32,000 nt of DNA from Dubosiella newyorkensis. GTDB taxonomy: Bacteria; Bacillota_I; Bacilli_A; Erysipelotrichales; Erysipelotrichaceae. The stretch is taken from contig NZ_MPKA01000086.1 in assembly GCF_001945605.1 (NCBI RefSeq), positions 1-32,000 of the forward strand. The letters run 5' to 3'. A program made the position numbers and the translations under genes. This document shows positions 1-26,208 of this stretch, in pieces. Each line of letters begins with the position of its first letter. The first letter of the stretch is position 1. The notes beneath the pieces are model-generated. The model was not told where the DNA came from. It made no database searches and saw only the letters and a program-made list of their open reading frames with translations.

Positions 1-85
1 TGAAGACGACAAGGTGGATAGGCCGGGAATGGAAGGGCAGCGATGTCCGGAGTGGACCGGTACTAATAGGCCGAGGACTTGATCA
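1..85 (+). rRNA. rrl: 23S rRNA, 3'-terminal fragment (gene continues upstream of the window)
   Basis: The sequence GAAGACGAC..GGTGGATAGG...GGTACTAATAGGCCGAGGACTTGATCA matches the conserved 3' terminus of bacterial 23S rRNA (compare Bacillus ...GGTCGAGGACTTAACCA). A 5S gene follows about 90 nt downstream, as in rrn operons. Confidence 0.85.
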
Positions 86-178
86 GAAAAGAGAAGAGAG
101 GACGCCATGACTTGAAACAGACGAAAGGGTTGTGTCTGAAAGATTTTTCCGGTTTTGAGGGATCGATCGAGGAGAAGA

Positions 179-5605: not shown

Positions 5606-7117
5606 ATGGCAAAATTTTTCAAAGAACCATCTAGAACATTTAGCGAATACTTGCTTGTGCCAGGCTATTCTGGACCCGATTGTACACCCGACAACGTCTC
5701 ATTGAAAACGCCTTTGGTCAAATTCAAAAAAGGAGAAGAACCCGCTTTATCTTTAAATATTCCTATGGTTTCCGCTGTCATGCAGGCTGTCAGTGGCGAA
5801 GAAATGGCTTGCGCCCTTTCTAGAGAAGGGGGAGTCAGCTTTATTTATGGCTCGCAGCCAATTGAAAGCCAAGCGGAAATGGTCCGAAATGTAAAAGCGT
5901 CGAAAGCAGGATTTGTCGGCAGTGATTCAAACCTTTCTTTGGATAGCACGCTTGCCGATGTTCTCGCTTTGAAAAAGAAAACGGGTCACTCGACGATGGC
6001 CGTGACAGATACAGGAAAAAGAGATGGAAAGCTTGTGGGGTTGGTCACTTCGCGCGATTTCCGCGAATCTCGTATGGATAAGAACACCAAAGTCAAAGAT
6101 TTCATGACCGCGTTCGACAAGCTGATCGTTGGAAAGGATGGCATCTCTCTTTCTGAAGCCAACGATATCATTTGGGAACATAAACTCAATCAGCTTCCTA
6201 TCGTCGATGAGAATCAGCGCTTAAAAGCGTTCGTGTTCCGTAAAGACTATGATTCCCATAAAGAAAATCCAAATGAGCTTTTGGATGAAAACAAGCGCTA
6301 TATCGTTGGAGCCGGAATCAATACAAGAGACTACGCTCAACGCGTTCCAGCCCTTGTGGAAGCAGGCGTCGATGTACTCGTGATCGACTCTTCCGAAGGT
6401 TATTCCTGCTGGCAAAAAGATACGATCCAATGGGTGCGCGAACATTATGGCGACAGTGTGAAGATCGGCGCAGGAAATGTCGTCGATGGCGATGGATTCC
6501 GCTTCTTGGCCGAGGCAGGTGCGGATTTTATCAAAGTCGGGATCGGTGGAGGCTCGATCTGCATCACCCGCGAACAAAAAGGAATCGGTCGTGGACAAGC
6601 GACAGCGACCCTCGATGTAGCTAACGCGCGCGATGAGTATTTCAAAAATACCGGAATCTATATTCCGATTTGTTCGGATGGCGGGATCGTACACGATTAC
6701 CATATCACTCTCGCTTTAGCCTTCGGAGCCGATTTCGTTATGTTAGGTCGTTATTTTGCACGTTTTAAAGAAGCGCCAAACAAACGCGTGAGCATCAATG
6801 GAAACTATATGAAAGAGTATTGGGGCGAAGGTTCTGCCAGAGCGCGTAACTGGCAACGTTATGATGTTGGTGGAGAAGGAAAGATGTCTTTTGTCGAAGG
6901 TGTCGATTCGTTTGTACCTTACGCTGGGTCGCTTCGAGACAATGTCGCTTTGACCTTATCGAAGATCAAACATACGATGTGCAACTGCGGATGCTTGACG
7001 ATACCAGAACTTCAACGAGATGCCAAAGTCACGCTCGTTTCTTCAACAAGTATCGTCGAAGGCGGGGCTCACGATGTGGTTGTCCGGGATGAAAATGTGG
7101 ATGCTAAAGTTCAGTAA
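5606..7117 (+). CDS. guaB: Inosine-5'-monophosphate dehydrogenase
   Basis: The catalytic loop is [23 protein letters not shown], and a CBS-pair insert is present (STMAVTD...LVGLVTSRD). The C-terminal sequence is [18 protein letters not shown]...[11 protein letters not shown]. Length is 503 aa. Confidence 0.95.
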
Positions 7118-7144
7118 AAGAAGGGTCGCCTTCTTTTCTTTTTG
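7117..7144 (+). terminator. Intrinsic terminator after guaB
   Basis: A stem (AAAGAAGG at 7117-7124 with CCTTCTTT at 7129-7136) has a GTCG loop and is followed by a T-rich tract, TCTTTTTG. It abuts or overlaps the first possible start codons of the next ORF. Confidence 0.7.
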
Positions 7145-8266
7145 ATGATGAAACAAGAACACGCGCATAAAAGCGATATCATGATGGATATCAGCATCTT
7201 GTATCGAAACACCCAAAAGTATTTCGACCGCAAGCTCGAACCATTGAAACTGACATACGCCCAGCTTCCCGTTTTATTCGCAATTTATGAAGAAGAAGGG
7301 ATCTCGATGCAGCGCATCGTCGAAAATGGCCAATACGATAAAGGGACCGTTACCAAGAACGTGCAAAAGCTCGAAAATCTAGGCTATATCAAAACTGTGC
7401 CCTCGAAAGTAGATAAACGTCTAAAGCATCTATATCCAACCAATGCGTGCGCGCAAATCATGCCGACCATATATCAAATGCGGGCTGATTGGTGGACTAA
7501 GGTCACAACAAGCATGGATAGAGAACAACTAGATGTTTTTCAAAACACATATTCTCTTTTGAGTGCCAATGTCAGCGCGTTTGCGGCTTGGAAACTCGAT
7601 GAATTTCGATTTTATGATTTAGATCCTTTATGTGTTGGTCATGAACCAGGAAAACTGAGCGCTTGTCTCTATACAGCTGGATGTAATCTTCGTTGCCCAG
7701 ATTGTCCAAGAAAAGATCTAGTCTATCTCAAAGAATCCAAAACACCTCTAAAAATGGAAAAAGTCAGCGCGTTTTTAGAGGAGAGAAAACACTTTTTATC
7801 AGCGCTTTGCATTCAAGGAGGCGAAGCGTGCTTGAATCCAGAACTCTCACATTTCTTTATCTATGTCAAACAGATGGGGTATACGATCATTTTAAAAACC
7901 AATGGAACGAAGCCAAAGGTTTTGAAGCAATGGATCGAAGAAAACGCAGTGGATAGAATCTGGTTCAACTTTAAAAGCCCCCCTCGACTCTACGCGAAAA
8001 AAACAGGGATGGACTTCTTTGACTTCTCGCTGATCGAACAAACATTGCAGATCCTGAAAACGATCCCGGATCGTACGGTCGTTGAAACAAGGCTTGCGCT
8101 TGATCTGTTTGAAGGCGGACTTGAAGAGATGGCGGGCTATCTTGATAAATCGTTCAAATGGATATGGCATGTTGATACATCGCTCCAAAACGAAACGATT
8201 CTCGTAGAAAAAGAGCGCTGTCAACACTATGTGAAAGAAATAGAGATCCGATATGCAAATACTTAA
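7142..8266 (+). CDS. Fusion protein: N-terminal MarR-family winged-helix domain plus C-terminal NrdG-like (class III RNR activase type) radical-SAM domain
   Basis: Residues ~14-150 look like MarR (LTYAQLPVLFAIYEEEGISMQRIVENGQYDKGTVTKNVQKLENLGYIKTVPSKVDKRLKHLYPT). Residues ~160-374 resemble the NrdG2-type activase: a CxxxCxxC motif (CNLRCPDC, nt 7682-7705), a GGE motif (IQGGEACL) and ILKTNGTKPKVL. The reading frame is continuous with no internal stop. The start is uncertain (TTG 7142, ATG 7145/7148, or ATG 7178/7181), and no candidate has a convincing SD. Confidence 0.8.
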   Translation: MMMKQEHAHKSDIMMDISILYRNTQKYFDRKLEPLKLTYAQLPVLFAIYEEEGISMQRIVENGQYDKGTVTKNVQKLENLGYIKTVPSKVDKRLKHLYPTNACAQIMPTIYQMRADWWTKVTTSMDREQLDVFQNTYSLLSANVSAFAAWKLDEFRFYDLDPLCVGHEPGKLSACLYTAGCNLRCPDCPRKDLVYLKESKTPLKMEKVSAFLEERKHFLSALCIQGGEACLNPELSHFFIYVKQMGYTIILKTNGTKPKVLKQWIEENAVDRIWFNFKSPPRLYAKKTGMDFFDFSLIEQTLQILKTIPDRTVVETRLALDLFEGGLEEMAGYLDKSFKWIWHVDTSLQNETILVEKERCQHYVKEIEIRYANT

Positions 8267-9467
8267 AGTCGAAAAAAGAGATGGGACGTTCGTCGATTTT
8301 GATCTAAAGAAGATCATCGCCGCAATCGAAAAAGCGTTTCAATCTCAAAACACGATCCAAGATCCTCAAATTATCGAACTTTTAGCTTTAAAAGTGAGCG
8401 CCGACTTCAAAAACAAGATCGAAGATGGCTATATTCAAGTCGAACAGATCCAAGATAGCGTGGAAAGCGTTTTAGCCCAAAGCGGATATGTGCAAGAAGC
8501 CAAAGCGTTCATCTTATATCGTGTTCAACGCACGAATGTCCGGAAACTTTCTTCTGAGAGAATCGAAGGCACATCGATGGATCTAGAAAGTTTGAAACAA
8601 AAGATCGTCGCCTCTTATGTGAGCCGTTTTTGGAGCAATGATATTTTTGATGCTTCCATACGAGAGGCTATGGAAAATAAAGCATTCGAATTTATCGATG
8701 ACAACGATCTAAAGCTAGGCAAGCTGTCCCTTTCTTTAGGAAAACACTTCGCCACGGATTCGATCGAAACATGCATCGACTGGATCGCCTCCCTATCTAA
8801 AGAATGGTCCGCTATCGACTTGTATGATCTTGAATCGGTGATTCATTTAAATGATGATCTAAAGAACTTGCTGTTAGTACTAGAAAACCTAGATTGTTGT
8901 TTTTCGATCGTTCTCGAAGAAAAAGAATGGATCTCAAAAATAGAAGAGATCAGCGAACGGATCGAGTGGAGATGGAAAACGTCGAGAGAAGCCATTTGCG
9001 AAATCGGACAAACTACAAAAATGACGCCGATCTATTCGATCGATCAAGAAAAAGAAATCGTCTGTGCTTCTTTATGGTTGAAGGATACGAATCAAATCGA
9101 ACTGGCTCAACGAGCTTTGATCACGAAAAAAGAAGTTTTTGAGCAGCTGTATCGAACCGGCTTTTATCCGAAAACGAAGCAATTGCTCAAGGATACCTTT
9201 GATCCCGTTTGTCAAATCTTTTCAGAAGAGATCCAGAACCAGCCTCTTCAAAACAAAAAGATCCATGTGATTTACCGCAAAGATTTCCATGAAAGCGATC
9301 TTTTTTTGATCCTACATTCCTTAGAGCAGATTCAGGTGCCTTCGATCTTGCGTTTTTATACGGATCTTGTCGATATCGATCCTGACGCTATCGAAGTTCT
9401 CCTTAAAAAAATTGGGGAAAGCGTGAATCAACCATTAAAATTTCAACTTTTTTTAAAAAAGTGTTGA
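8253..9467 (+). CDS. ATP-cone domain protein with an uncharacterised ~310-aa C-terminal region (no recognisable reductase or glycyl-radical motifs)
   Basis: Residues 1-~92 are a typical ATP-cone (ILKVEKRDGTFVDFDLKKIIAAIEKAF ... VEQIQDSVESVLAQSGYVQEAKAFILYRVQR), as found at the N-terminus of NrdD, NrdA and NrdR. I could not assign the rest of the protein to a family by eye. The gene overlaps the upstream ORF by 14 nt, which suggests translational coupling. Confidence 0.75.
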   Translation: MQILKVEKRDGTFVDFDLKKIIAAIEKAFQSQNTIQDPQIIELLALKVSADFKNKIEDGYIQVEQIQDSVESVLAQSGYVQEAKAFILYRVQRTNVRKLSSERIEGTSMDLESLKQKIVASYVSRFWSNDIFDASIREAMENKAFEFIDDNDLKLGKLSLSLGKHFATDSIETCIDWIASLSKEWSAIDLYDLESVIHLNDDLKNLLLVLENLDCCFSIVLEEKEWISKIEEISERIEWRWKTSREAICEIGQTTKMTPIYSIDQEKEIVCASLWLKDTNQIELAQRALITKKEVFEQLYRTGFYPKTKQLLKDTFDPVCQIFSEEIQNQPLQNKKIHVIYRKDFHESDLFLILHSLEQIQVPSILRFYTDLVDIDPDAIEVLLKKIGESVNQPLKFQLFLKKC

Positions 9468-9492
9468 AAATCGATTCTCTGTTTGCTATTAT
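9464..9492 (+). promoter_or_regulatory. Sigma-A type promoter for tRNA-Leu (TTGAAA-17-TATTAT)
   Basis: The -35 is TTGAAA at 9464-9469, overlapping the stop codon of the upstream ORF. The -10 is TATTAT at 9487-9492 with 17-nt spacing. The tRNA starts about 30 nt downstream. Confidence 0.6.
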
Positions 9493-9521: not shown

Positions 9522-9608
9522 GCCCGGGTGGTGAAATTGGTAGACGCAGTGGACTCAAAATCCACCGGTAGCGATACCGTACCGGTTCGAGTCCGGTCCT
9601 GGGCACCA
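9522..9608 (+). tRNA. tRNA-Leu (anticodon CAA), class II with long variable arm and encoded CCA
   Basis: The acceptor stem GCCCGGG pairs with CCTGGGC. The anticodon stem GTGGA/TCCAC carries the loop CT-CAA-AA. A long variable arm (GGTAGCGATACCGTACC) and a T-arm (CCGGTTCGAGTCCGG) are present, followed by a 3' ACCA. Confidence 0.93.
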
Positions 9609-9620
9609 TTTGCAATCATC

Positions 9621-9647
9621 AAGCAGCCGAGCTGCTTGTTTTTTTTT
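9621..9647 (+). terminator. Intrinsic terminator after tRNA-Leu
   Basis: The stem AAGCAGC (9621-9627) pairs with GCTGCTT (9631-9637) around a CGA loop, followed by G and then T x9. Confidence 0.8.
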
Positions 9648-9666: not shown

Positions 9667-10833
9667 ATGAAAGTCTTATTAGGGTTGAGCGGCGGGGTCG
9701 ACTCTGCCATAGCTGCGTATCTTTTACAAAAGCAAGGATATGACGTAACTTGCTGTTTTATGCGAAATTGGGATAGTTTTGCCAACAACGATATTTTAGG
9801 GAATCCATTGATCCAATCGGATATTTGTCCTCAAGAACAAGACTATCTCGACGCCAAAGCGGTCGCAGAACATCTAGGCTTGACTTTAGATCGAGTCGAT
9901 TTTATCGAAGACTACTGGAATAAAGTCTTTTTGACATTTTTAGAAGAATATAAAAAAGGAAGAACGCCCAATCCTGATATTTTATGCAATCAATACATTA
10001 AATTCGACGCTTTTTTCCAATACGCGATGGATCATGGGTACGATATGGTTGCTACCGGGCATTATGCGAGCACTCAACAAAAAGATGGCTTTACCTATCT
10101 TGCACGGGCAGCCGACACAAATAAAGATCAAACGTATTTTTTATGCCAAGTAGCGCCGGAAGCGATCGCTAAAACGCTCTTTCCCCTTGGCAATATCACA
10201 AAGTCGGAAGTCCGCAAGCTCGCCGAAGAGCTTGATCTAGAAAGCGTGATGAAGAAAAAAGACAGCACCGGGATCTGCTTTATTGGCGAGCGGAACTTTC
10301 GAGAATTCTTGAGCAACTATTTGCCATCCAAACCTGGAGAAATCATCGATATCAACACCGGAAAAATTGTCGGAGAACATATAGGTGTATTGTATTATAC
10401 GATCGGACAGCGCAAAGGACTTCACATCGATCACGAAAAAGGCCCATGGTTCGTGATCGGCAAAGATGTAGAAACGAATCGTCTATTTGTCACGCACCAT
10501 ACGCAAAAACAATGGCTTTCTTCCGATCAAGCGCTTATCAAAAACATCAACTGGATCGTCGAGGATAAAACATCGATCCCGCAAGAGCTTACATGCAAGT
10601 TTCGATATCGCCAAAAAGATCAAGACGTAAAACTCAAGTGGATCACGAACGACAGCGTGCTGCTTTCTTACCCTCAAGGAATCGAGGGCGTCACGGAAGG
10701 GCAAGAAGCCGTCCTTTATGATGGCGAGCTGTGTCTTGGAGGAGGCGTGATCGATGTCGTATATAAAGAAGGGAAAATCCTTCACGATACGATCTTGCAG
10801 CGTTATGAGGAATTGAGACATGGGCGAGACTAA
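9667..10833 (+). CDS. mnmA: tRNA 2-thiouridine(34) synthase (tRNA-specific 2-thiouridylase)
   Basis: A PP-loop (LGLSGGVDSAIAAYLL) is present, with catalytic cysteine contexts (CCFMRNWD, TPNPDILCN, DSTGICFIGE) and DQTYFL. The SD AGGAGG lies at 9656-9661. Confidence 0.95.
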   Translation: MKVLLGLSGGVDSAIAAYLLQKQGYDVTCCFMRNWDSFANNDILGNPLIQSDICPQEQDYLDAKAVAEHLGLTLDRVDFIEDYWNKVFLTFLEEYKKGRTPNPDILCNQYIKFDAFFQYAMDHGYDMVATGHYASTQQKDGFTYLARAADTNKDQTYFLCQVAPEAIAKTLFPLGNITKSEVRKLAEELDLESVMKKKDSTGICFIGERNFREFLSNYLPSKPGEIIDINTGKIVGEHIGVLYYTIGQRKGLHIDHEKGPWFVIGKDVETNRLFVTHHTQKQWLSSDQALIKNINWIVEDKTSIPQELTCKFRYRQKDQDVKLKWITNDSVLLSYPQGIEGVTEGQEAVLYDGELCLGGGVIDVVYKEGKILHDTILQRYEELRHGRD

Positions 10834-12974: not shown

Positions 12975-13181
12975 AGTTTGACAATGAAAAAGAGGAGTAG
13001 AAGATCAGATCTTTGCAGAGACAAGGTGGCTGGTGAAAACCTTGAAGATCTTTTTTTTGAAGGCTGCTTTGGAGTTGAACCGCTCTTCGCGTTATCGAAG
13101 AATCAAGCGCATTCTTTATTGAAGAATGAATTAGGATGGTACCGCGTGATCAACGTTCCTAAATTTAGGGACGTTTTTTTT
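12975..13181 (+). promoter_or_regulatory. T-box riboswitch (Ala specifier) controlling alaS
   Basis: Stem I elements are present: an AGTA S-turn (GGAGTAGAAG), an AGAGA bulge and a distal GGTGAAAAC loop. The specifier loop reads GAAG-GCT-G (GCU at 13063-13065, with a second GCT at 13066-13068). The conserved T-box sequence AATTAGGATGGTACCGCG lies at ~13129-13146 and contains UGGU, complementary to the ACCA end of tRNA-Ala. A terminator follows (AACGTTCCTAAATTTAGGGACGTT plus T x8, 13152-13181), immediately before the alaS SD GGGAGGAG. Confidence 0.88.
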
Positions 13182-13195
13182 ATGGGAGGAGAACA

Positions 13196-15823
13196 ATGAA
13201 ACAATTAACAGGAAATCAAGTTCGACAAATGTTTTTGGATTATTTCGCGTCCAAAGGACATATGATCGAACCTGGCGCGAGCTTGATCCCAGACAATGAT
13301 CCAACGCTTTTATGGATCAATGCTGGAGTCGCGGCTCTTAAAAAGTATTTTGATGGTTCGCAAAAACCACGCTGTAATCGGATCGCCAACGCGCAGAAAA
13401 GTATCCGCACCAACGATATTGAAAATGTCGGAAAAACAGCAAGACACCATACGTTTTTCGAAATGCTCGGAAACTTTTCGATCGGTGATTATTTCAAAGA
13501 AGAAGCGATCCCATTCGCTTGGGAATTTTTGACTAGCGAAGAATGGATGGGCATCGATAAAGATCGTCTTTATGTTTCTGTCTATACAGATGATGAAGAC
13601 GCTTATCGGATCTGGACAGAAGTATGCAAAGTTGATCCTAGCCATATTCTGAAAACAGATGAGAACTTTTGGGAAATCGGAAAAGGTCCAGGAGGCCCGG
13701 ATTCAGAAATATTCTTCGATCGTGGCGAAAAATACGATCCAGAACACTTAGGAGAACGGCTCTTTTTTGAAGAGCTAGAGAACGATCGTTATGTCGAAGT
13801 GTGGAATGTCGTATTCTCGCAATTCAACTGCGATCCTGCGATCGACCGCAAAGAATATAAAGAACTTCCACAAAAAAACATCGATACAGGGATGGGATTG
13901 GAACGTTTGGTCGCTCTTATACAAGATGGAGAGACGAACTTTGATACAGATCTTTTCTTGCCAATCATCCACGCAACCGAGAAATACGCCAAATACCCTT
14001 ATGAAGGAGAATATAAAATGGCTTATCGGGTCATCGCCGATCACATCCGAACGATTGTATTCGCTTTAAGCGATGGCGCCAATTTCTCCAACAGCGGACG
14101 AGGCTATGTACTGCGCCGTGTGCTTAGAAGAGCGGCTCGTTATGGATTGAAGCTCGGGATCGATGAACCATTCCTCTATAAGCTTGTTCCCGTTGTCAAC
14201 GAGGTAATGAAAGATTTCTATCCATATTTGCAAGAACATACTTCGATGAACGAGAAGCTCATCAAAAATGAAGAGGAAACATTTAAAAAGACATTGAAGG
14301 TGGGCCAATCGATGCTTGATGAAGAGATCAAGAACGCAAAAGATGGCAAACTTGGTGGAGATGTCGTCTTCACTTTGTACGATACATATGGCTTCCCATT
14401 CGAGTTGACACAAGAAATCGCCGAAGAAAACGGATTGACAATCTCGCGCCAAGAATTCGACGCCCACATGCAAGAACAAAAAGAAAGAGCGCGGAACGCA
14501 CGAAATACGAAAGATTCATTCAACGCGCAAAACGAAGCTTTGATGAATTTTACGACACCTTCTGAATTTGTCGGTTATGATACGCTTGCTTGTCCTGGAC
14601 AAGTGATTGCTCTATTCAAAGAAGGAGAAATGGTTGATTCCCTGCAAGGAGAAGGAGAAGTGATCTTTGATCAAACTTGCTTCTATGCAGAAAGCGGCGG
14701 ACAAGTCGCGGATACAGGTGTGATCGAAAATGAAGAAGTCAAAGCGGATGTCGTCGATGTTCAAAAAACACGCAACTCGCAGCACTTATTGAAAGTTATT
14801 GTCCAAGAGGGGACATTGCATACGGGAGATATTCTCGAACAAAAAGTCGACGCGAAGCGCCGCATGAAGACGACAGCCAATCACTCCTGCACCCATTTGC
14901 TTCAAAGTGCTTTGAAAAAAGTGCTCGGCGAGCATATCCAGCAAGCTGGAAGCTTTGTCGGGCCTGATTATTTGCGCTTTGATTTCCGTCATTTTGAAAA
15001 GATCACACCAGAACAGCTTCATGAAGTCGAAGCGATCGTCAATAGCTATATCGAAAACGCATATCCAGTCACGAAAGAGATCATGGCGATCGAGGACGCG
15101 AAAAAATCGGGAGCTACCGCGCTATTCAACGAAAAATATGGAGATACGGTCCGCGTCGTAACAATGGGGGATGCTTCGAAAGAGTTTTGTGCTGGTACCC
15201 ATGTCAACAACACTTCGGCTATTGGTGTCTGCAAGATCATTGGCGAAGAATCGATCGGTTCCGATTCGAGACGGATCAGCGCGAAGACAGGATTTGCCGC
15301 TTATCAAGAGTTTGCCAACGAGCACCAGCAATTAGAAACGATCGCGGACGCTTTAAAACAGAAGAGCATCAAAGAGATCGATCAAAAGGTGATCTCAACG
15401 ATGGATTCATACAAGGAACTTCAAAAAGAAGCTGAAAAGATGAACAATCAAATCTTGTCTTTGAAATCCAACGAATGGATCAAAGATCAAGAAGAGATCA
15501 ACGGCTTCCATGTATTGATCAAAGCGATCAAAAACCTAGATGGGAAAGAGATGAAAGAAATCGCGACCGATCTCAAAGGCAAGGACGCGAATTTGATTGT
15601 CTTCTTCTACGCGATCAACAACGATAAAGTCGTCTTTGTTTCTGGTGTCGGAAAAGAAGCGATCGCCAAAAAAGCGAATGCTGGCACGCTTGTCAAATCG
15701 GCGGCCCAGATCTGCAAAGGAAATGGTGGTGGAAAGCCGGATCTAGCACAAGCAGGTGGTAAAGACGCTTCCATGATTCAAGAAGCGATCGATTTTGTGA
15801 AAGCAAGTATTCAATCTTTATAG
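13196..15823 (+). CDS. alaS: Alanine--tRNA ligase
   Basis: Class II AARS motifs are present (FFEMLGNFSIGDYFK, DTGMGLERL), along with the editing-domain HxxxH...CxxxH pattern (HSCTHLL...CAGTHV) and a C-terminal DHHA1-like GGGKPDLAQAGG. Length is 875 aa. Confidence 0.97.
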   Translation: MKQLTGNQVRQMFLDYFASKGHMIEPGASLIPDNDPTLLWINAGVAALKKYFDGSQKPRCNRIANAQKSIRTNDIENVGKTARHHTFFEMLGNFSIGDYFKEEAIPFAWEFLTSEEWMGIDKDRLYVSVYTDDEDAYRIWTEVCKVDPSHILKTDENFWEIGKGPGGPDSEIFFDRGEKYDPEHLGERLFFEELENDRYVEVWNVVFSQFNCDPAIDRKEYKELPQKNIDTGMGLERLVALIQDGETNFDTDLFLPIIHATEKYAKYPYEGEYKMAYRVIADHIRTIVFALSDGANFSNSGRGYVLRRVLRRAARYGLKLGIDEPFLYKLVPVVNEVMKDFYPYLQEHTSMNEKLIKNEEETFKKTLKVGQSMLDEEIKNAKDGKLGGDVVFTLYDTYGFPFELTQEIAEENGLTISRQEFDAHMQEQKERARNARNTKDSFNAQNEALMNFTTPSEFVGYDTLACPGQVIALFKEGEMVDSLQGEGEVIFDQTCFYAESGGQVADTGVIENEEVKADVVDVQKTRNSQHLLKVIVQEGTLHTGDILEQKVDAKRRMKTTANHSCTHLLQSALKKVLGEHIQQAGSFVGPDYLRFDFRHFEKITPEQLHEVEAIVNSYIENAYPVTKEIMAIEDAKKSGATALFNEKYGDTVRVVTMGDASKEFCAGTHVNNTSAIGVCKIIGEESIGSDSRRISAKTGFAAYQEFANEHQQLETIADALKQKSIKEIDQKVISTMDSYKELQKEAEKMNNQILSLKSNEWIKDQEEINGFHVLIKAIKNLDGKEMKEIATDLKGKDANLIVFFYAINNDKVVFVSGVGKEAIAKKANAGTLVKSAAQICKGNGGGKPDLAQAGGKDASMIQEAIDFVKASIQSL

Positions 15824-23308: not shown

Positions 23309-25111
23309 ATGGATCAATCACACATTCGTAACTTTTCGATCATCGCCCATATCGATCATGGAAAATCGACATTGGCGGATCGTATCTTAGAAATGACGGA
23401 TACTGTCGAAAAGCGAGAAATGAAAGAACAGCTTCTCGATTCGATGGATCTAGAGAGGGAAAGAGGGATCACGATCAAGCTCAATGCGGTCCAGCTCGTC
23501 TATCATGCAAAGAATGGGGAAGACTATATTTTTCATTTGATCGACACCCCAGGACATGTCGACTTCACGTATGAAGTGAGTCGCTCGCTGGCTGCTTGTG
23601 ATGGAGCGATCCTCGTGGTAGATGCAGCGCAAGGTGTCCAAGCCCAAACATTAGCCAACGTCTATCTTGCTTTGGAAAACGATCTTGAGATCTTGCCAGT
23701 TCTCAACAAGATCGATCTACCAAGCGCTCAGCCAGAGCTTGTAAAAAAAGAAATCGAAGATATGATCGGCTTAGATTGTTCGGACGCAGTCGAGATCTCC
23801 GCAAAATCGGGCCAAGGCGTCGAGGATGTGCTCGAGCAAATCGTCGCCAAGCTGCCAAGTCCTTCAGGCAAACCAAACGCGCCTCTTCAAGCGCTCGTCT
23901 TTGATTCTTTATATGATCCATATCGTGGTGTTATCGCTTTTGTCAGCATTAAAAATGGGACGATCAAGCCCAAAGACAAGATCCGCTTTATGGCTAGCGG
24001 CGCCGAGTACGAAGTCATCGAAGTTGGAGTCCGCACGCCCAAAGAAGTCCAAGAAGATGAATTATCGACAGGCGATGTTGGCTGGATCAGCGCCGCGATC
24101 AAAAATATCGAAAACGTTCGTGTCGGCGATACGATCACCCATGTTGAAAATCCTGCCGAAAAACCGCTCGAAGGATATCGGCAAATGCAGCCGATGGTGT
24201 ATTGCGGACTGTACCCAGTGGATAATGCCCGTTATGACGATTTGAAAGACGCTTTAGCTAAGCTCAAGCTCAATGACGCTTCCTTGCAGTATGAACCTGA
24301 GACATCACAAGCGCTCGGTTTTGGATTTCGATGCGGCTTTTTAGGCTTGCTTCATATGGATGTGATCGAAGAACGGCTCGAACGAGAATACAACTTGAAT
24401 TTGATCGCCACAAGTCCTTCAGTTATTTATCATGTCTATAAAACCGATGGCGAAATGGTTGCGATCGACAATCCAGCCGCTCTCCCGCCCGCTCAAAATA
24501 TTGACCGCATCGAAGAACCTTACGTCAAAGCGGAGATCCTCGTACCGAAAGAATATGTTGGAGCGATCATGGATCTTTGCCAAAAGAAAAGAGGAGAATA
24601 TGTCGATATGCAAGTGATCGACGAAGTTAGAATGCAGATCGTATACGAACTCCCTCTTTCCGAGATCATTTATGATTTCTTCGATAAACTTAAATCCTCG
24701 ACTAAAGGATACGCAAGCTTTGACTACGCGTTTACAGGATATCGGCCAAGCAAGCTTGTCAAGATGGATATCTTGCTCAATGGACAAATCATCGACGCCC
24801 TCTCAACGATCGTCTTCAAAGATTTCGCGTATCGAAGAGGCAACGCGATGACAATCAAGTTAAAGGATCTCATTCCAAAACAACAATTCGAGATCCCGGT
24901 CCAAGCAGCTATTGGCGGCAAGATCATCGCCCGCACCAACATCAAGGCGCTTAGAAAAAATGTCCTCGCCAAATGCTATGGGGGCGATATATCCCGAAAG
25001 AAGAAGCTGCTGGAAAAACAAAAAGAAGGAAAGAAGCGCATGAAAATGGTCGGCTCAGTCGAGATCCCGCAAGAAGCCTTCATGGCTGTCCTTTCGATGG
25101 ATGAAGAATAA
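23309..25111 (+). CDS. lepA: Translation elongation factor 4 (LepA)
   Basis: GTPase motifs are present ([32 protein letters not shown]), together with the LepA-specific C-terminal domain ([34 protein letters not shown]). Length is 600 aa. Confidence 0.97.
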
Positions 25112-26208
25112 TGTCTCTTGCTTGCTATATCCACGTGCCTTTCTGCAAGTCGATCTGCCCATATTGTGATTTTTGCAGGATCTTATACGATCCAAAACGC
25201 GTCGATCCATGGTTGGAAACGATCCAAAAAGAAATCGAAAGCGCTCTTTCTTGGATCCGAAAGCAAGATGGCTTGCGTACCCTTTATCTTGGGGGAGGGA
25301 CCCCGAACATCTTAAGCGAAGATCAACTGCAAACACTCGTATCGCCTTTGATCCCTTATTTACATGAAGATTATGAATTTACGATCGAATGCAATCCGGA
25401 AGCGCTTAATGAAGACAAGATCAAAGCGATGAAAAAACTTGGCGTCAACCGTGTTTCTTTAGGTGTTCAGAGTTTTCAAGACGACATTCTTAGAAAACTT
25501 GGAAGAAGGCATACGAAGGAAATGATCGAACGAGCGATCGAATCGCTCAAACGAAATGGAATCGAGAATATCTCGATCGATCTCATGTATGCTTTGCCAT
25601 TTCAAGACCAACGCGACTTAAAAAAGGATATCGAAGAGTTTTTGAAACTTGATATCATGCATCTTTCGATCTATTCACTGATCTTGGAAGAAAATTCCGC
25701 GTTTGGCAAAGCCCATATGCAGCCTCTTGATGAGGATCTAGAAGCCGACGAATATGAATGGATCGTCAAAACGCTCAAAGAGCATGGTTTTGACCACTAT
25801 GAAATCAGCAGTTTTGCGAAAGAAGGCGCTTATTCCAAGCATAATCTTGCTTATTGGATGGATGAAGATTTTATCGGAATCGGCGCAGGAGCGAGCGGAA
25901 GATTTTTAGGGGCGCGCTATCACAATACAAAGGATCTCGATACGTATATTCGTCTAGGACCATGCAGGACAGAAGAAAAAACAGATGGGCCTTTCGAAGC
26001 CATCATGATGGGATTAAGAACGAGCTTTGGTGTTGATCTAAAAGCGTATGAGGAAAAATATCAGATTGATCTAGAAAAGAAAGCTCGACCGCTTATGAAA
26101 AAATATGAAGGAGAGCTGATGATCCAGGAAGGCGCCTTAAAATGTGATGAAAGAGGTCGGGAAAAATTGAATAGTATTTTAGTTGATTTTTTAGACCTTT
26201 ACGCATAA
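25111..26208 (+). CDS. hemW: Radical SAM family heme chaperone HemW (oxygen-independent coproporphyrinogen III oxidase-like)
   Basis: The radical-SAM motif is YIHVPFCKSICPYCDF (CxxxCxxC with aromatic Y). Further motifs are LYLGGGTPN, NRVSLGVQSF and an HNLAYW-type C-terminal HemN_C region. The lepA-hemW adjacency is conserved, with a TAATG overlap at the junction. Confidence 0.92.
   Translation: MSLACYIHVPFCKSICPYCDFCRILYDPKRVDPWLETIQKEIESALSWIRKQDGLRTLYLGGGTPNILSEDQLQTLVSPLIPYLHEDYEFTIECNPEALNEDKIKAMKKLGVNRVSLGVQSFQDDILRKLGRRHTKEMIERAIESLKRNGIENISIDLMYALPFQDQRDLKKDIEEFLKLDIMHLSIYSLILEENSAFGKAHMQPLDEDLEADEYEWIVKTLKEHGFDHYEISSFAKEGAYSKHNLAYWMDEDFIGIGAGASGRFLGARYHNTKDLDTYIRLGPCRTEEKTDGPFEAIMMGLRTSFGVDLKAYEEKYQIDLEKKARPLMKKYEGELMIQEGALKCDERGREKLNSILVDFLDLYA

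What the first reader, a model, noticed from the sequence alone, without database searches (positions are those of the whole stretch)
7142..8266. DNA-binding MarR domain fused in-frame to a radical-SAM activase domain with an atypical cluster motif
The frame is continuous from the MarR wHTH (…QRIVENGQYDKGTVTKNVQKLENLGYIKTVPSKVDKRLKHLYPT…) into an NrdG-like domain.

The three cluster cysteines are retained (C181/C185/C188, CNLRCPDC, nt 7682-7705). However, the residue before the last Cys is Asp. In radical-SAM enzymes this position is normally aromatic (CxxxCxΦC; compare CPYC in HemW at 25111-26208 in this same window). The usual following HN is PR, and the GGEPTL motif reads GGEACL.

This pattern suggests either a divergent activase or an Fe-S-binding sensor domain that no longer cleaves SAM. 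A transcription factor that carries an activase-type 4Fe-4S domain would be an oxygen/redox-sensing design by analogy to other Fe-S regulators. The gene also lacks a convincing SD or promoter of its own and starts within the guaB terminator, so its expression may depend on terminator read-through from guaB.
Basis: partly seen in the sequence, partly recalled or inferred. Interest (0 to 1): 0.65.

Follow-up and report, generated by a model that had tools for sequence, protein, structure and literature searches.

The report
Dead RNR activase fused to MarR
This Dubosiella newyorkensis gene fuses a MarR DNA-binding domain to a remnant of the enzyme that switches on anaerobic ribonucleotide reductase; the reductase next door has decayed too, so the pair looks like an enzyme system kept, if it still works at all, for some non-catalytic job, possibly gene regulation.

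Summary
ORF 7142-8266 is one continuous frame encoding a complete MarR domain plus a radical-SAM activase-like domain with CNLRCPDCPR.

This fusion is the standard NrdG of Erysipelotrichaceae. About 75 genomes carry it directly upstream of an ATP-cone gene.

Where that partner is an intact class III reductase (NrdD with the MCCR finger loop and glycyl-radical motif), the fusion always keeps 8 of 8 activase active-site residues. An 18-bp palindrome also sits in its promoter.

Where NrdD is degenerate, those residues decay. This has happened in at least 3 lineages.

The window is among the most degenerate cases:
- NrdD is reduced to a 404-aa ATP-cone protein at 8253-9467.
- The palindrome and the gene's own promoter are gone.
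- The activase domain keeps 0 of 8 active-site residues.
- It still retains the three cysteines, GGE, TNG and Lys278, which are invariant within its subclade.

The protein is therefore almost certainly not a working activase. It is most likely a MarR regulator with a pseudo-enzyme domain that probably still binds an Fe-S cluster, paired with an ATP-cone relic. Redox or nucleotide sensing is plausible but untested.

Open points are its DNA targets and whether another nrdD exists in the genome.

The parts
5606..7117 (+). guaB (IMP dehydrogenase), the upstream neighbour. The pulA-guaB-fusion-cone synteny is found only in the clade with degenerate NrdD.
   Evidence: Pfam IMPDH, E 6e-110. Synteny by tblastn.
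7116..7137 (+). Terminator-like hairpin of guaB (AAAAGAAGG-GTCG-CCTTCTTTT) followed by CTTTTT. The fusion ORF starts 5-8 nt after it.
   Evidence: dG is -10.9 kcal/mol, z = -2.0. A similar AGAAGG..CCTTCT hairpin occurs in L001, L002 and L007.
7142..8266 (+). MarR-(NrdG2-like) fusion ORF, 374 aa from TTG 7142. The likely start is ATG 7145. NCBI names it 'MarR family transcriptional regulator [Dubosiella newyorkensis]'.
   Evidence: AF2 model has pLDDT 91.7.
7178..7585 (+). Complete MarR domain (residues ~13-148). It comprises the dimerisation helices, the wHTH with recognition helix DKGTVTKNVQKLE, and a wing carrying D91-K92-R93.
   Evidence: Pfam. PDB sequence hit 3s2w, E 1e-13. Foldseek hits 3bpv, 3s2w and SlyA, TM 0.8-0.93. 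63 of 150 residues are invariant in the subclade.
7592..8263 (+). Radical-SAM activase-like domain (residues 151-374) with a partial TIM-barrel fold, judged catalytically degenerate.
   Evidence: NrdG2 TIGR02495 scores 102.9 bits, below its cut-off. Foldseek hits PFL-AE 3c8f/3cb8 and QueE 5th5. 0 of 8 active-site positions are kept.
7682..7705 (+). Cluster motif C181-NLR-C185-PD-C188. It is followed by PRKD where the canonical form has [HQ]N.
   Evidence: Sequence. Alignments.
7817..7825 (+). GGE motif (G226 G227 E228), retained.
7895..7906 (+). K252-T253-N254-G255. The canonical form is DTNG. The Asp, equivalent to PFL-AE Asp104 (a ligand of the K+ site), is replaced by Lys, while TNG is retained.
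   Evidence: PMC10267522.
8253..9467 (+). Partner gene of 404 aa: an intact ATP-cone (residues 5-94) plus about 300 aa of NrdD relic. It has no NRDD domain, no MCCR finger loop, no glycyl-radical motif and no Zn site. It overlaps the fusion ORF by 14 nt.
   Evidence: Pfam ATP-cone E 3.7e-22 and nothing else. Alignment A3. tblastn matches only NrdD residues 3-170. AF2 gives pLDDT ~90 for residues 1-100 and below 50 for most of the rest. NCBI name is 'ATP cone domain-containing protein [Dubosiella newyorkensis]'.
9522..9608 (+). tRNA-Leu(CAA), with its own promoter-like site (9464-9492) and terminator (9620-9638). It marks the downstream end of the unit.

Best explanation
**What it is.** The gene is the Dubosiella newyorkensis ortholog of an Erysipelotrichaceae-specific fusion of a MarR-family DNA-binding domain to the class III ribonucleotide-reductase activase NrdG (NrdG2 type).

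**Ancestral state (inferred from relatives).** The fusion gene lies immediately upstream of nrdD. It keeps all activase active-site residues. Its promoter carries a conserved 18-bp palindrome (TAGTTGGAAATCCAACTA-like) between the -10 element and the SD. The protein was therefore probably both activase and autoregulator of the nrdG-nrdD operon.

**State in the window (shown).**
- NrdD has collapsed to an ATP-cone plus a poorly folding relic that lacks the finger-loop cysteines and the glycyl-radical domain.
- The palindrome and the gene's own promoter are gone. The gene now abuts the guaB terminator.
- The radical-SAM domain has replaced all eight positions that are invariant whenever NrdD is intact: Phe/Tyr187->Asp, His/Gln189->Pro, Asn190->Arg, Asp252->Lys, Asp276->Asn, Arg315->Glu, His323->Phe, Gln343->His.
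- It still keeps the CX3CX2C loop, GGE, TNG and Lys278.

**Most likely mechanism (inferred).** The protein no longer generates a glycyl radical. It survives as a full-length MarR-type transcription factor. Its C-terminal pseudo-activase domain probably still ligates a [4Fe-4S] cluster and acts as a sensor or partner-binding module. It is co-expressed with the ATP-cone relic, which could add ATP/dATP sensing. Its targets and signal are unknown. Expression probably relies on read-through of the moderate guaB terminator or on a weak leaderless start.
For: **Architecture and fold.**

**Family and context.**
- The fusion occurs in about 75 Erysipelotrichaceae loci, nearly always directly upstream of an ATP-cone gene and often with a 4-nt overlap.
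- The partner exists in three states: intact NrdD of 782-802 aa, NrdD-like proteins of 599-725 aa without the MCCR loop, and relics of 373-404 aa.
- MCCR is the class III finger-loop motif (PMC9669993).

**Co-variation of fusion and partner.**
- All 21 fusions next to an intact NrdD keep 8 of 8 active-site positions.
- The 42 fusions next to a degenerate partner keep 0-6.
- The window keeps 0 of 8.
- Non-redundant sets give MWU p = 1.4e-7 and Fisher p = 1.8e-10.
- The tree shows at least 3 separate degenerations.

**Structural rationale.** In PFL-AE, Asn38, Asp104, Asp129 and Arg166 organise the GGE cis-peptide and the K+/SAM site.

**Operator.** 22 of 27 palindrome hits with at most 1 mismatch in 1.23 Mb lie 54-81 nt before codon 16 of the fusion gene (chance expectation 2.7). 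A core motif is shared by 29 loci. The window has none.

**Selection.**
- dS is saturated (at least 2), yet every fusion ORF is intact in 21 non-redundant degenerate lineages.
- MarR sites that are invariant in canonical members are almost all kept (33 of 36), whereas about 30 of 70 radical-SAM sites are relaxed.
- Within the window subclade the invariant radical-SAM residues are exactly the cluster loop, GGE, TNG, D271, K278, Y284 and G289.
- dN for the ATP-cone is 0.09, against 0.8 for the relic tail.
Against: - No experiment bears on any step.
- The window's 32 kb holds no operator-like site, so DNA binding by this particular protein is unsupported.
- The radical-SAM domain and the relic tail evolve fast (dN 0.5-1.2).
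- Within-species differences are about 1:1 synonymous to non-synonymous (3:3 and 3-8:4-5), against 10-11:0 for guaB. These are small numbers, but they are compatible with weak constraint or ongoing decay.
- Six related loci (L009, L016, L019, L023, L024, L027) lost one to three of the cluster cysteines but kept the ORF. An Fe-S cluster is therefore not required for whatever maintains the family.
- The relic lacks the glycyl-radical domain that NrdG normally docks on, so an interaction between the two proteins is conjecture.
- The eight diagnostic positions were chosen from the alignment itself, and the statistics are not corrected for phylogeny.
- A second intact nrdD elsewhere in the genome could not be excluded.
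Confidence: 0.6

Rival explanations
1. The protein is an oxygen/redox-sensing transcription factor. An activase-type [4Fe-4S] cluster that no longer cleaves SAM controls DNA binding by the MarR domain, by analogy with FNR, NsrR or IscR. This is a sharper version of the best explanation, not its opposite.
For: - All three Cys are kept in the window and in 17 of 21 non-redundant degenerate lineages.
- Within the window subclade (39-59% identity) the whole loop G180-C-N-L-x-C-P-x-C188, GGE and TNG are invariant, while only 17% of the domain's residues are.
- In the one subclade that lost a Cys, most or all of the triad went. This suggests the triad is actively maintained elsewhere.
- A site-differentiated cluster with an open iron is typically oxygen-labile (general knowledge).
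Against: - Six related loci (L009, L016, L019, L023, L024, L027) keep the ORF with an incomplete or absent Cys triad.
- There is no evidence of cluster binding, of redox-dependent DNA binding or of any target.
- The retained GGE, TNG and Lys could equally mean binding of a ligand (SAM or methionine) instead of redox sensing.
- The ATP-cone partner points to nucleotide sensing instead.
Confidence: 0.3
2. The locus is a decaying relic. After class III RNR was lost or replaced, the nrdG-nrdD remnant has no function, or only the MarR part has one. The radical-SAM-like domain and the ATP-cone relic are on their way to deletion.
For: - The window is among the most degenerate members (0 of 8 active-site positions, tied with L020), with the operator and its own promoter lost.
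- There is no SD, and the start sits in a terminator tail.
- dN is high in the radical-SAM domain and the relic.
- AF2 cannot fold the relic tail.
- The within-species non-synonymous to synonymous ratio is about 1:1.
Against: - Both ORFs are intact and of similar length in every lineage of the subclade, despite saturated dS.
- A 224-codon unconstrained tail would acquire stops, yet no MarR-only truncation is seen in 21 non-redundant degenerate lineages.
- The cluster loop, GGE and TNG are invariant.
- The ATP-cone is strongly conserved (dN 0.09).
- Twelve full-length protein variants within the species show no nonsense changes.
Confidence: 0.2
3. The protein is an ordinary, working NrdG activase with an accessory MarR domain. 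It activates an intact NrdD encoded elsewhere in the D. newyorkensis genome, and the odd motif is tolerated variation.
For: - The three Cys, GGE and TNG are present.
- E. coli NrdG also lacks an aromatic residue before Cys3 (CPGCYN).
- Fusions with canonical residues but no adjacent nrdD exist (L037/41/48/50/51), so activase and reductase genes can be unlinked.
- The rest of the genome could not be searched.
Against: - 0 of 8 positions that are invariant in every relative with an intact NrdD are kept, and they are mostly conserved in stand-alone NrdG2 too. They include the Asn after Cys3 and both carboxylates of the cation/SAM site.
- The NrdG2 model score is below its cut-off.
- The cognate adjacent NrdD is a relic.
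- The domain evolves about 10-fold faster in dN than guaB.
Confidence: 0.06

Closest known systems
NrdG2-type anaerobic ribonucleotide reductase activating protein (TIGR02495); structural proxy PFL-AE (PDB 3c8f/3cb8)
   Same: - The C-terminal half is homologous (102.9 bits).
- It has the same partial TIM-barrel fold.
- CX3CX2C, GGE, TNG and the Lys of the beta5 motif are present.
- The gene sits where nrdG sits relative to the nrdD-derived gene.
   Different: - The score is below the family cut-off.
- The aromatic residue and the H/Q-N around Cys3 are missing, as are both Asp ligands of the cation/SAM site, the Arg166 equivalent, and two further invariant residues.
- There is no intact NrdD substrate next to it.
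- It carries an N-terminal 150-aa MarR domain.
MarR-family transcriptional regulators (e.g. PDB 3s2w, 3bpv, SlyA 3q5f)
   Same: - It has the full MarR fold, including dimerisation helices, recognition helix and wing Arg.
- Relatives have a palindromic site in their own promoter, as is typical of autoregulated MarR proteins.
   Different: - Classical MarR proteins are about 140-160 aa and sense ligands or oxidation within the MarR dimer itself.
- This one carries a 224-aa enzyme-derived domain.
- In this organism no operator is recognisable.
NrdR (Zn-ribbon + ATP-cone repressor of RNR genes)
   Same: - Conceptually it is an RNR-linked regulator that couples DNA binding to an ATP-cone nucleotide sensor.
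- Here the DNA-binding module (MarR) and the ATP-cone lie on two adjacent, overlapping genes.
   Different: - There is no homology in the DNA-binding part (MarR wHTH against Zn-ribbon).
- The two functions are on separate polypeptides.
- No NrdR-box-like sites are seen.
- The regulatory role here is inferred, not shown.
Fe-S cluster transcription factors (FNR, IscR/NsrR, SoxR, WhiB-like)
   Same: This is a possible working analogy: a DNA-binding domain coupled to an oxygen- or NO-labile Fe-S cluster.
   Different: - The cluster domain has a different origin and fold (radical-SAM barrel with a three-Cys site-differentiated cluster).
- No family membership applies.
- Cluster binding has not been demonstrated.
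Class III RNR NrdD with double-cysteine MCCR finger loop, ATP-cone and C-terminal glutaredoxin-like domain (as in Kandleria, Holdemania, Sharpea)
   Same: - The partner ORF 8253-9467 shares the ATP-cone (40-60% identity).
- It also keeps short recognisable pieces: SRFWSNDIFDASIREAM ~ NYWLSEVYDEEI, and LAQRAL..GFYPKTK ~ ISARSL..GLYPYTK.
   Different: - It is about 400 aa shorter.
- It lacks the NRDD Pfam domain, the finger loop, the glycyl-radical motif, the Zn site and the Grx domain.
- It cannot be a reductase.

Membership tests
MarR family (PF01047/PF12802) | Sequence match to the wHTH above the curated threshold | tested here: met
   MarR_2 scores 45.8 bits (cut-off 27) and MarR 35.2 bits (cut-off 24.6), both at residues 37-93.
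MarR family (PF01047/PF12802) | Six-helix fold with N- and C-terminal dimerisation helices and a beta-wing | tested here: met
   AF2 model shows helices 13-35, 39-50, 56-63, 67-80, strands 83-87/95-99, and helices 101-121 and 127-148, with pLDDT above 90. Foldseek TM is 0.8-0.93 to 3bpx, 3s2w and SlyA.
MarR family (PF01047/PF12802) | Binds a palindromic operator, usually in its own promoter | tested here: inconclusive
   A conserved palindrome lies in the fusion-gene promoter of 29 relatives. None is found in the window. Binding itself cannot be tested here.
Radical SAM superfamily (PF04055) | CX3CX2C motif and a partial TIM-barrel core | tested here: met
   C181/C185/C188 are present. PF04055 scores 36 bits (cut-off 29.5). 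The fold matches PFL-AE and QueE.
Radical SAM superfamily (PF04055) | Reductive cleavage of SAM at a [4Fe-4S] cluster | not testable with these tools
   This needs anaerobic biochemistry.
NrdG2 activase (TIGR02495) | Whole-protein score at or above NCBIfam's equivalog cut-off | tested here: not met
   102.9 bits against a cut-off of 131.15.
NrdG2 activase (TIGR02495) | Cluster-loop signature C-P-[FY]-C-[HQ]-N | tested here: not met
   The window reads C-P-D-C-P-R. All 21 relatives with an intact NrdD and 2 of the 4 stand-alone NrdG2-like sequences (P0032, P0035) keep the signature.
NrdG2 activase (TIGR02495) | Cation/SAM-site residues equivalent to PFL-AE Asp104, Asp129 and Arg166 | tested here: not met
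   The window has K252, N276 and E315. Canonical members have D, D and R. The roles of these residues are taken from PMC10267522.
NrdG2 activase (TIGR02495) | GGE motif and T-N-G of the beta4 motif | tested here: met
   G226-G227-E228 and T253-N254-G255 are present.
NrdG2 activase (TIGR02495) | A cognate NrdD with a glycyl-radical motif available as substrate | tested here: not met
   The adjacent gene lacks the NRDD domain, the MCCR loop and the RxxGY motif. The only NrdD-like match in the 32 kb is to residues 3-170. The rest of the genome was not searchable.
Class III RNR NrdD (PF13597) - partner ORF 8253-9467 | NRDD catalytic barrel, finger-loop Cys (MCCR/MGCR), C-terminal glycyl-radical motif and Zn site | tested here: not met
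   Only the ATP-cone is detected. Alignment A3 shows these regions deleted.
ATP-cone domain (PF03477) - partner ORF | Full-length match to the ATP-cone model, including the VxKRDG start | tested here: met
   79.1 bits at residues 5-94, covering model positions 2-87 of 88. K8, R9, K20 and others are invariant across relics and NrdDs. pLDDT is about 90.
NrdR | N-terminal Zn-ribbon fused to the ATP-cone, plus NrdR boxes | tested here: not met
   There is no Zn-ribbon in either ORF. This is an analogy only.

The most novel reading that the evidence does not exclude
A former enzyme-activase pair has been converted into a two-protein transcriptional sensor. The MarR-pseudo-NrdG protein would bind DNA and read an Fe-S cluster or SAM-like ligand. 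The ATP-cone-pseudo-NrdD protein would read the ATP/dATP ratio. Together they would control nucleotide-metabolism or anaerobiosis genes in Dubosiella and related gut Erysipelotrichaceae. This would be an NrdR-like function that evolved independently from the RNR machinery itself, and repeatedly, given at least 3 separate losses of catalysis with retention of both ORFs.
Probability: 0.25. Interest if true: 0.8.

Novelty: new variant of a known kind. Interest (0 to 1): 0.62.

Why it matters
**A likely pseudo-enzyme from a well-understood system.** The case offers a built-in natural series within one bacterial family, running from intact enzyme pair, through a reductase without its finger loop, to an ATP-cone relic.

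**Testable hypotheses.**
1. In canonical relatives, NrdG itself is fused to a repressor that binds a defined palindrome at nrdGD. No paper describing this way of regulating class III RNR turned up in the library searched.
2. After catalysis is lost, the DNA-binding domain, the cluster-binding loop and the ATP-cone persist. This suggests a moonlighting or regulatory role that outlives the enzyme.

**Annotation.** The JGI source names one member of the fusion family (P0013) 'anaerobic ribonucleoside-triphosphate reductase activating protein', while NCBI calls the window protein a plain 'MarR family transcriptional regulator'. Metabolic reconstructions of abundant gut Erysipelotrichaceae (Dubosiella, Holdemanella, Faecalitalea, Faecalibaculum, Solobacterium) could wrongly credit them with a class III RNR.

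Tried and rejected
- **Frameshift or assembly artefact.** Rejected. The same architecture occurs in about 75 genomes and 10 independent metagenome contigs.
- **Asp before Cys3 as proof of inactivity.** Rejected as a stand-alone argument, because E. coli NrdG has Gly there. It was replaced by a family-wide co-variation analysis.
- **GGEA as atypical.** Rejected. It also occurs in a stand-alone NrdG2-like homolog and in relatives whose fusion keeps all eight active-site residues.
- **Search for a second nrdD in D. newyorkensis.** This failed. The NrdD protein search returned only the 120 best hits (at least 84% identity), none from Dubosiella. The result is inconclusive.
- **dN/dS.** dS is saturated for all informative pairs. 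Within-species contigs give too few differences. Only qualitative conclusions were drawn.
- **Operator search in the window.** Both the full and core palindrome give chance-level hits only. Inverted-repeat scans near guaB, the fusion start and the relic end found only the terminator hairpins and an AT-rich palindrome.
- **Rfam.** No riboswitch or leader lies near the locus.
- **Stand-alone MarR homologs in Clostridia (L076-L080).** The one examined (L076) is not next to nrdDG, and no NrdD-like match was found in L076 or L078, so they do not explain the origin of the fusion.
- **Structure of the relic.** AF2 gives a confident ATP-cone only, so no fold search was attempted on it.
- **Literature.** No paper on MarR-NrdG fusions or degenerate NrdD/NrdG pairs was found in five full-text searches. 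The library is incomplete.
Full report
**1.

- ORF 7142..8266 (+) is continuous and 374 aa from TTG 7142. Gene callers use ATG 7145, giving 373 aa.
- Pfam finds a MarR wHTH (residues 37-93, E 6.7e-12) and Radical_SAM (177-293, above threshold).
- NCBIfam's best model is NrdG2 (TIGR02495, residues 159-307), but at 102.9 bits it falls below the 131.15 cut-off.
- Codons 7682-7705 encode C181-NLR-C185-PD-C188, followed by PRKD. GGE is G226-G227-E228-ACL.
- An AF2 model built on 25 homologs is confident (pLDDT 91.7). Residues ~13-148 superpose on MarR structures (TM 0.8-0.93). The C-terminal half superposes on PFL-activating enzyme and QueE.
- A guaB terminator-like hairpin (7116-7137, dG -10.9 kcal/mol) and its T-run end right at the start codon. 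No SD or promoter-like site lies between.
- The organism is Dubosiella newyorkensis. NCBI calls the protein 'MarR family transcriptional regulator'.

**2. The fusion is a family, and it is the local NrdG**

- A protein search found about 31 clusters of full-length MarR-radical-SAM fusions (34-99% identity) before any stand-alone NrdG2.
- An exhaustive profile search of 1.84 billion representatives found about 30 full-length fusion clusters, followed by ordinary ~230-aa NrdG2.
- A scan of one genome per species returned 75 full-length loci. By their record titles nearly all are Erysipelotrichaceae, including Holdemanella, Faecalitalea, Dubosiella, Faecalibaculum, Solobacterium, Bulleidia, Holdemania and Kandleria. 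A few are MAG bins carrying other taxon labels.
- In nearly all of them the next gene starts with an ATP-cone. It is often 4 nt overlapping or a few nt away.

**3. The partner gene exists in three states**

- (a) Proteins of 782-802 aa with the class III finger loop SMCCRLRL, the glycyl-radical motif RITGYY, the Zn site and a C-terminal glutaredoxin-like domain. The double-Cys MCCR motif is described in PMC9669993. These are intact NrdD.
- (b) NrdD-like proteins of 599-725 aa in which the finger loop is deleted. Some have also lost the glycyl-radical domain.
- (c) Proteins of 373-404 aa, found in the window, Firmicutes bacterium M10-2, Erysipelotrichaceae OPF54 and D. muris. They have an intact ATP-cone plus short recognisable NrdD fragments, and no catalytic barrel.

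For the window's ORF 8253-9467:
- Only the ATP-cone is detected.
- Only NrdD residues 3-170 match.
- AF2 folds only residues 1-100.

Canonical NrdDs are 84-88% identical across genera. The degenerate ones are only 43-59% identical to a canonical one.

**4. The activase residues track the partner's state**

I aligned all fusions with four stand-alone NrdG2 and asked which positions are invariant in 15 non-redundant fusions next to an intact NrdD.

- In the MarR half, 33 of 36 such positions are still kept in 21 non-redundant 'degenerate' lineages.
- In the radical-SAM half, about 30 of 70 are relaxed.
- The eight clearest positions (window numbering) are 187 F/Y, 189 H/Q, 190 N, 252 D, 276 D, 315 R, 323 H and 343 Q.
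  - They are 8/8 in all 21 canonical fusions.
  - They are 0-6/8 in all 42 degenerate ones.
  - The window reads D, P, R, K, N, E, F, H, which is 0/8.
  - MWU gives p = 1.4e-7 and Fisher p = 1.8e-10 on the non-redundant sets.
- These tests ignore phylogeny. However, a tree shows at least three separate transitions: the guaB-adjacent clade, Solobacterium, and L058/L063.

Four of the eight positions have an independent structural meaning. Aligned to PFL-AE they correspond to:
- Asn38, which H-bonds to the GGE cis-peptide.
- Asp104 and Asp129, the ligands of the active-site K+ that also contacts the SAM carboxylate. Asp104 is critical.
- Arg166 (PMC10267522).

E. coli NrdG reads CVHECPGCYN, so a non-aromatic residue before Cys3 is not diagnostic on its own.

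**5. What is retained**

- All three Cys are kept in the window and in 17 of 21 non-redundant degenerate lineages.
- In one subclade (L009, 16, 19, 23, 24, 27) most or all of the triad is replaced, although the ORF is intact.
- The window's own subclade comprises five lineages at 39-59% identity.
  - 42% of MarR residues are invariant there, against 17% of radical-SAM residues.
  - The invariant radical-SAM residues include G180-C-N-L-x-C-P-x-C188, GGE, TNG, D271, K278, Y284 and G289.
- The cluster loop and the motifs that hold the methionine end of SAM are therefore under selection. The residues around the adenosine and the cation site are not.
- dS between these lineages is saturated (at least 2).
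  - dN is 0.04-0.08 for guaB.
  - dN is 0.17-0.41 for MarR.
  - dN is 0.48-0.78 for the radical-SAM domain.
  - dN is 0.09-0.41 for the ATP-cone.
  - dN is 0.8-1.26 for the relic tail.
- No lineage shows a truncated MarR-only gene. An unconstrained 224-codon tail should have acquired stop codons at this divergence.
- Within the species, differences are few.
  - The fusion shows 3 synonymous and 3 non-synonymous changes, against guaB at 10-11 and 0.
  - Twelve full-length protein variants carry no nonsense changes.

**6. A likely operator in relatives, missing here**

- Upstream of the fusion gene in canonical loci lies an 18-bp palindrome, TAGTTG-N6-CAACTA. Its core is GT[TA]G[GA]A-N2-T[CT]CAAC.
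- It typically sits between a -35/-10 promoter and the SD.
- With at most 1 mismatch it occurs 27 times in 1.23 Mb of loci. Of these, 22 lie 54-81 nt before codon 16 of the fusion gene, against a chance expectation of 2.7 in total.
- It survives in some degenerate loci (Faecalitalea, L005/6, L016, L021). It is absent from Holdemanella, Solobacterium and the window subclade.
- The window has only chance-level matches.
- This is the expected signature of MarR autoregulation of nrdG-nrdD in the ancestor. In D. newyorkensis the autoregulatory site and the gene's own promoter have been lost.
- The recognition helix and wing (DKGTVTKNVQKLE, DKR) are still conserved.

**7. Interpretation**

Shown:
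- The gene derives from the family's nrdG.
- Its cognate NrdD is a relic.
- Its activase active site is dismantled, while the cluster loop, the MarR domain and the partner's ATP-cone stay conserved.

Inferred:
- The protein no longer activates a reductase.
- It persists as a MarR-type regulator with a pseudo-enzyme domain that probably binds Fe-S. It possibly works with the ATP-cone protein.

Rivals:
It is compatible with the evidence, but six related loci with an incomplete or absent Cys triad argue against it for the family as a whole.
- Slow decay without function is argued against by ORF and motif retention.
- A working activase for an unlinked NrdD is unlikely at 0/8, but the genome could not be searched.

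**8. Comparison and novelty**

- The protein works partly like a MarR regulator and is structurally an NrdG2 derivative.
- It fails several defining tests for NrdG2 membership: the model score, the cluster-loop signature, the cation/SAM site and the substrate.
- No paper describing MarR-NrdG fusions or degenerate NrdD/NrdG pairs was found. Other N-terminal fusions of NrdG2 do exist, such as NUDIX and acyltransferase.
- I rate it a new variant of known kinds. It has a credible but unproven chance of being an enzyme pair repurposed as a nucleotide- or redox-responsive regulator.

Noticed in passing
L028, L030-L036, L038-L041, L043-L047, L049, L051, L053, L058-L060, L065-L067, L070 (upstream of the fusion gene); e.g. 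L066:5327-5344, L030:5722-5739: A conserved palindrome TAGTTGGAAATCCAACTA (core GT[TA]G[GA]A-N2-T[CT]CAAC) lies between the -10 element and the SD of the MarR-nrdG gene. It is a candidate operator for autoregulation of class III RNR in Erysipelotrichaceae.
   Followed up: yes
L009, L016, L019, L023, L024, L027 (fusion ORFs): These fusion proteins are full length, but their cluster cysteines are replaced (e.g. GSNFRSPFDTHPE). They cannot bind the radical-SAM cluster, yet the ORF and the downstream NrdD-like gene persist.
   Followed up: partly
L056:11141-13084 and 13099-13305 (Solobacterium; similar lengths in L054-L062, L068, L069): The NrdD-like protein ends at 647 aa, without the finger loop or glycyl-radical domain. 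In L056 a separate fragment matching the glutaredoxin-like C-terminus follows. This is a degeneration independent of the one in the window clade.
   Followed up: partly
L037, L041, L048, L050, L051: These fusions keep all eight canonical activase residues, but a family-1 glycosidase-like gene follows them. No nrdD lies within 10 kb. The activase and reductase genes can therefore be unlinked in this family.
   Followed up: partly
P0231 (428 aa), P0269 (423 aa): Other N-terminal fusions of NrdG2-like activases exist: NUDIX-NrdG2 and acyltransferase-NrdG2.
   Followed up: partly
window 12975-13163: A T-box leader (123.9 bits) lies upstream of alaS (13196-15823).
   Followed up: no
window 1-86 and 179-292: The 3' end of 23S rRNA and a 5S rRNA gene lie at the start of the window.
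   Followed up: no
window 9441-9469: An AT-rich palindrome TTTCAACTTTTTTT-A-AAAAAGTGTTGAAA spans the stop codon of the ATP-cone relic gene. It overlaps the promoter-like site of tRNA-Leu (9464-9492). Its function is unknown.
   Followed up: no
L001:~6940-6970, L002:~9965-9995, L007:~8000-8015: In the window's closest relatives, GTGTACAAT or TGTGTAAAAT lies a few nt before the likely start codon of the fusion gene. This is a possible -10 element for a leaderless transcript. The window lacks it.
   Followed up: no
L033:11151-12677 and L072:11141-11839: The partner genes are cut short in Holdemania filiformis (508 aa, finger loop present but C-terminus missing) and in one Solobacterium MAG (232 aa). 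These may be recent pseudogenisation or sequencing errors.
   Followed up: no
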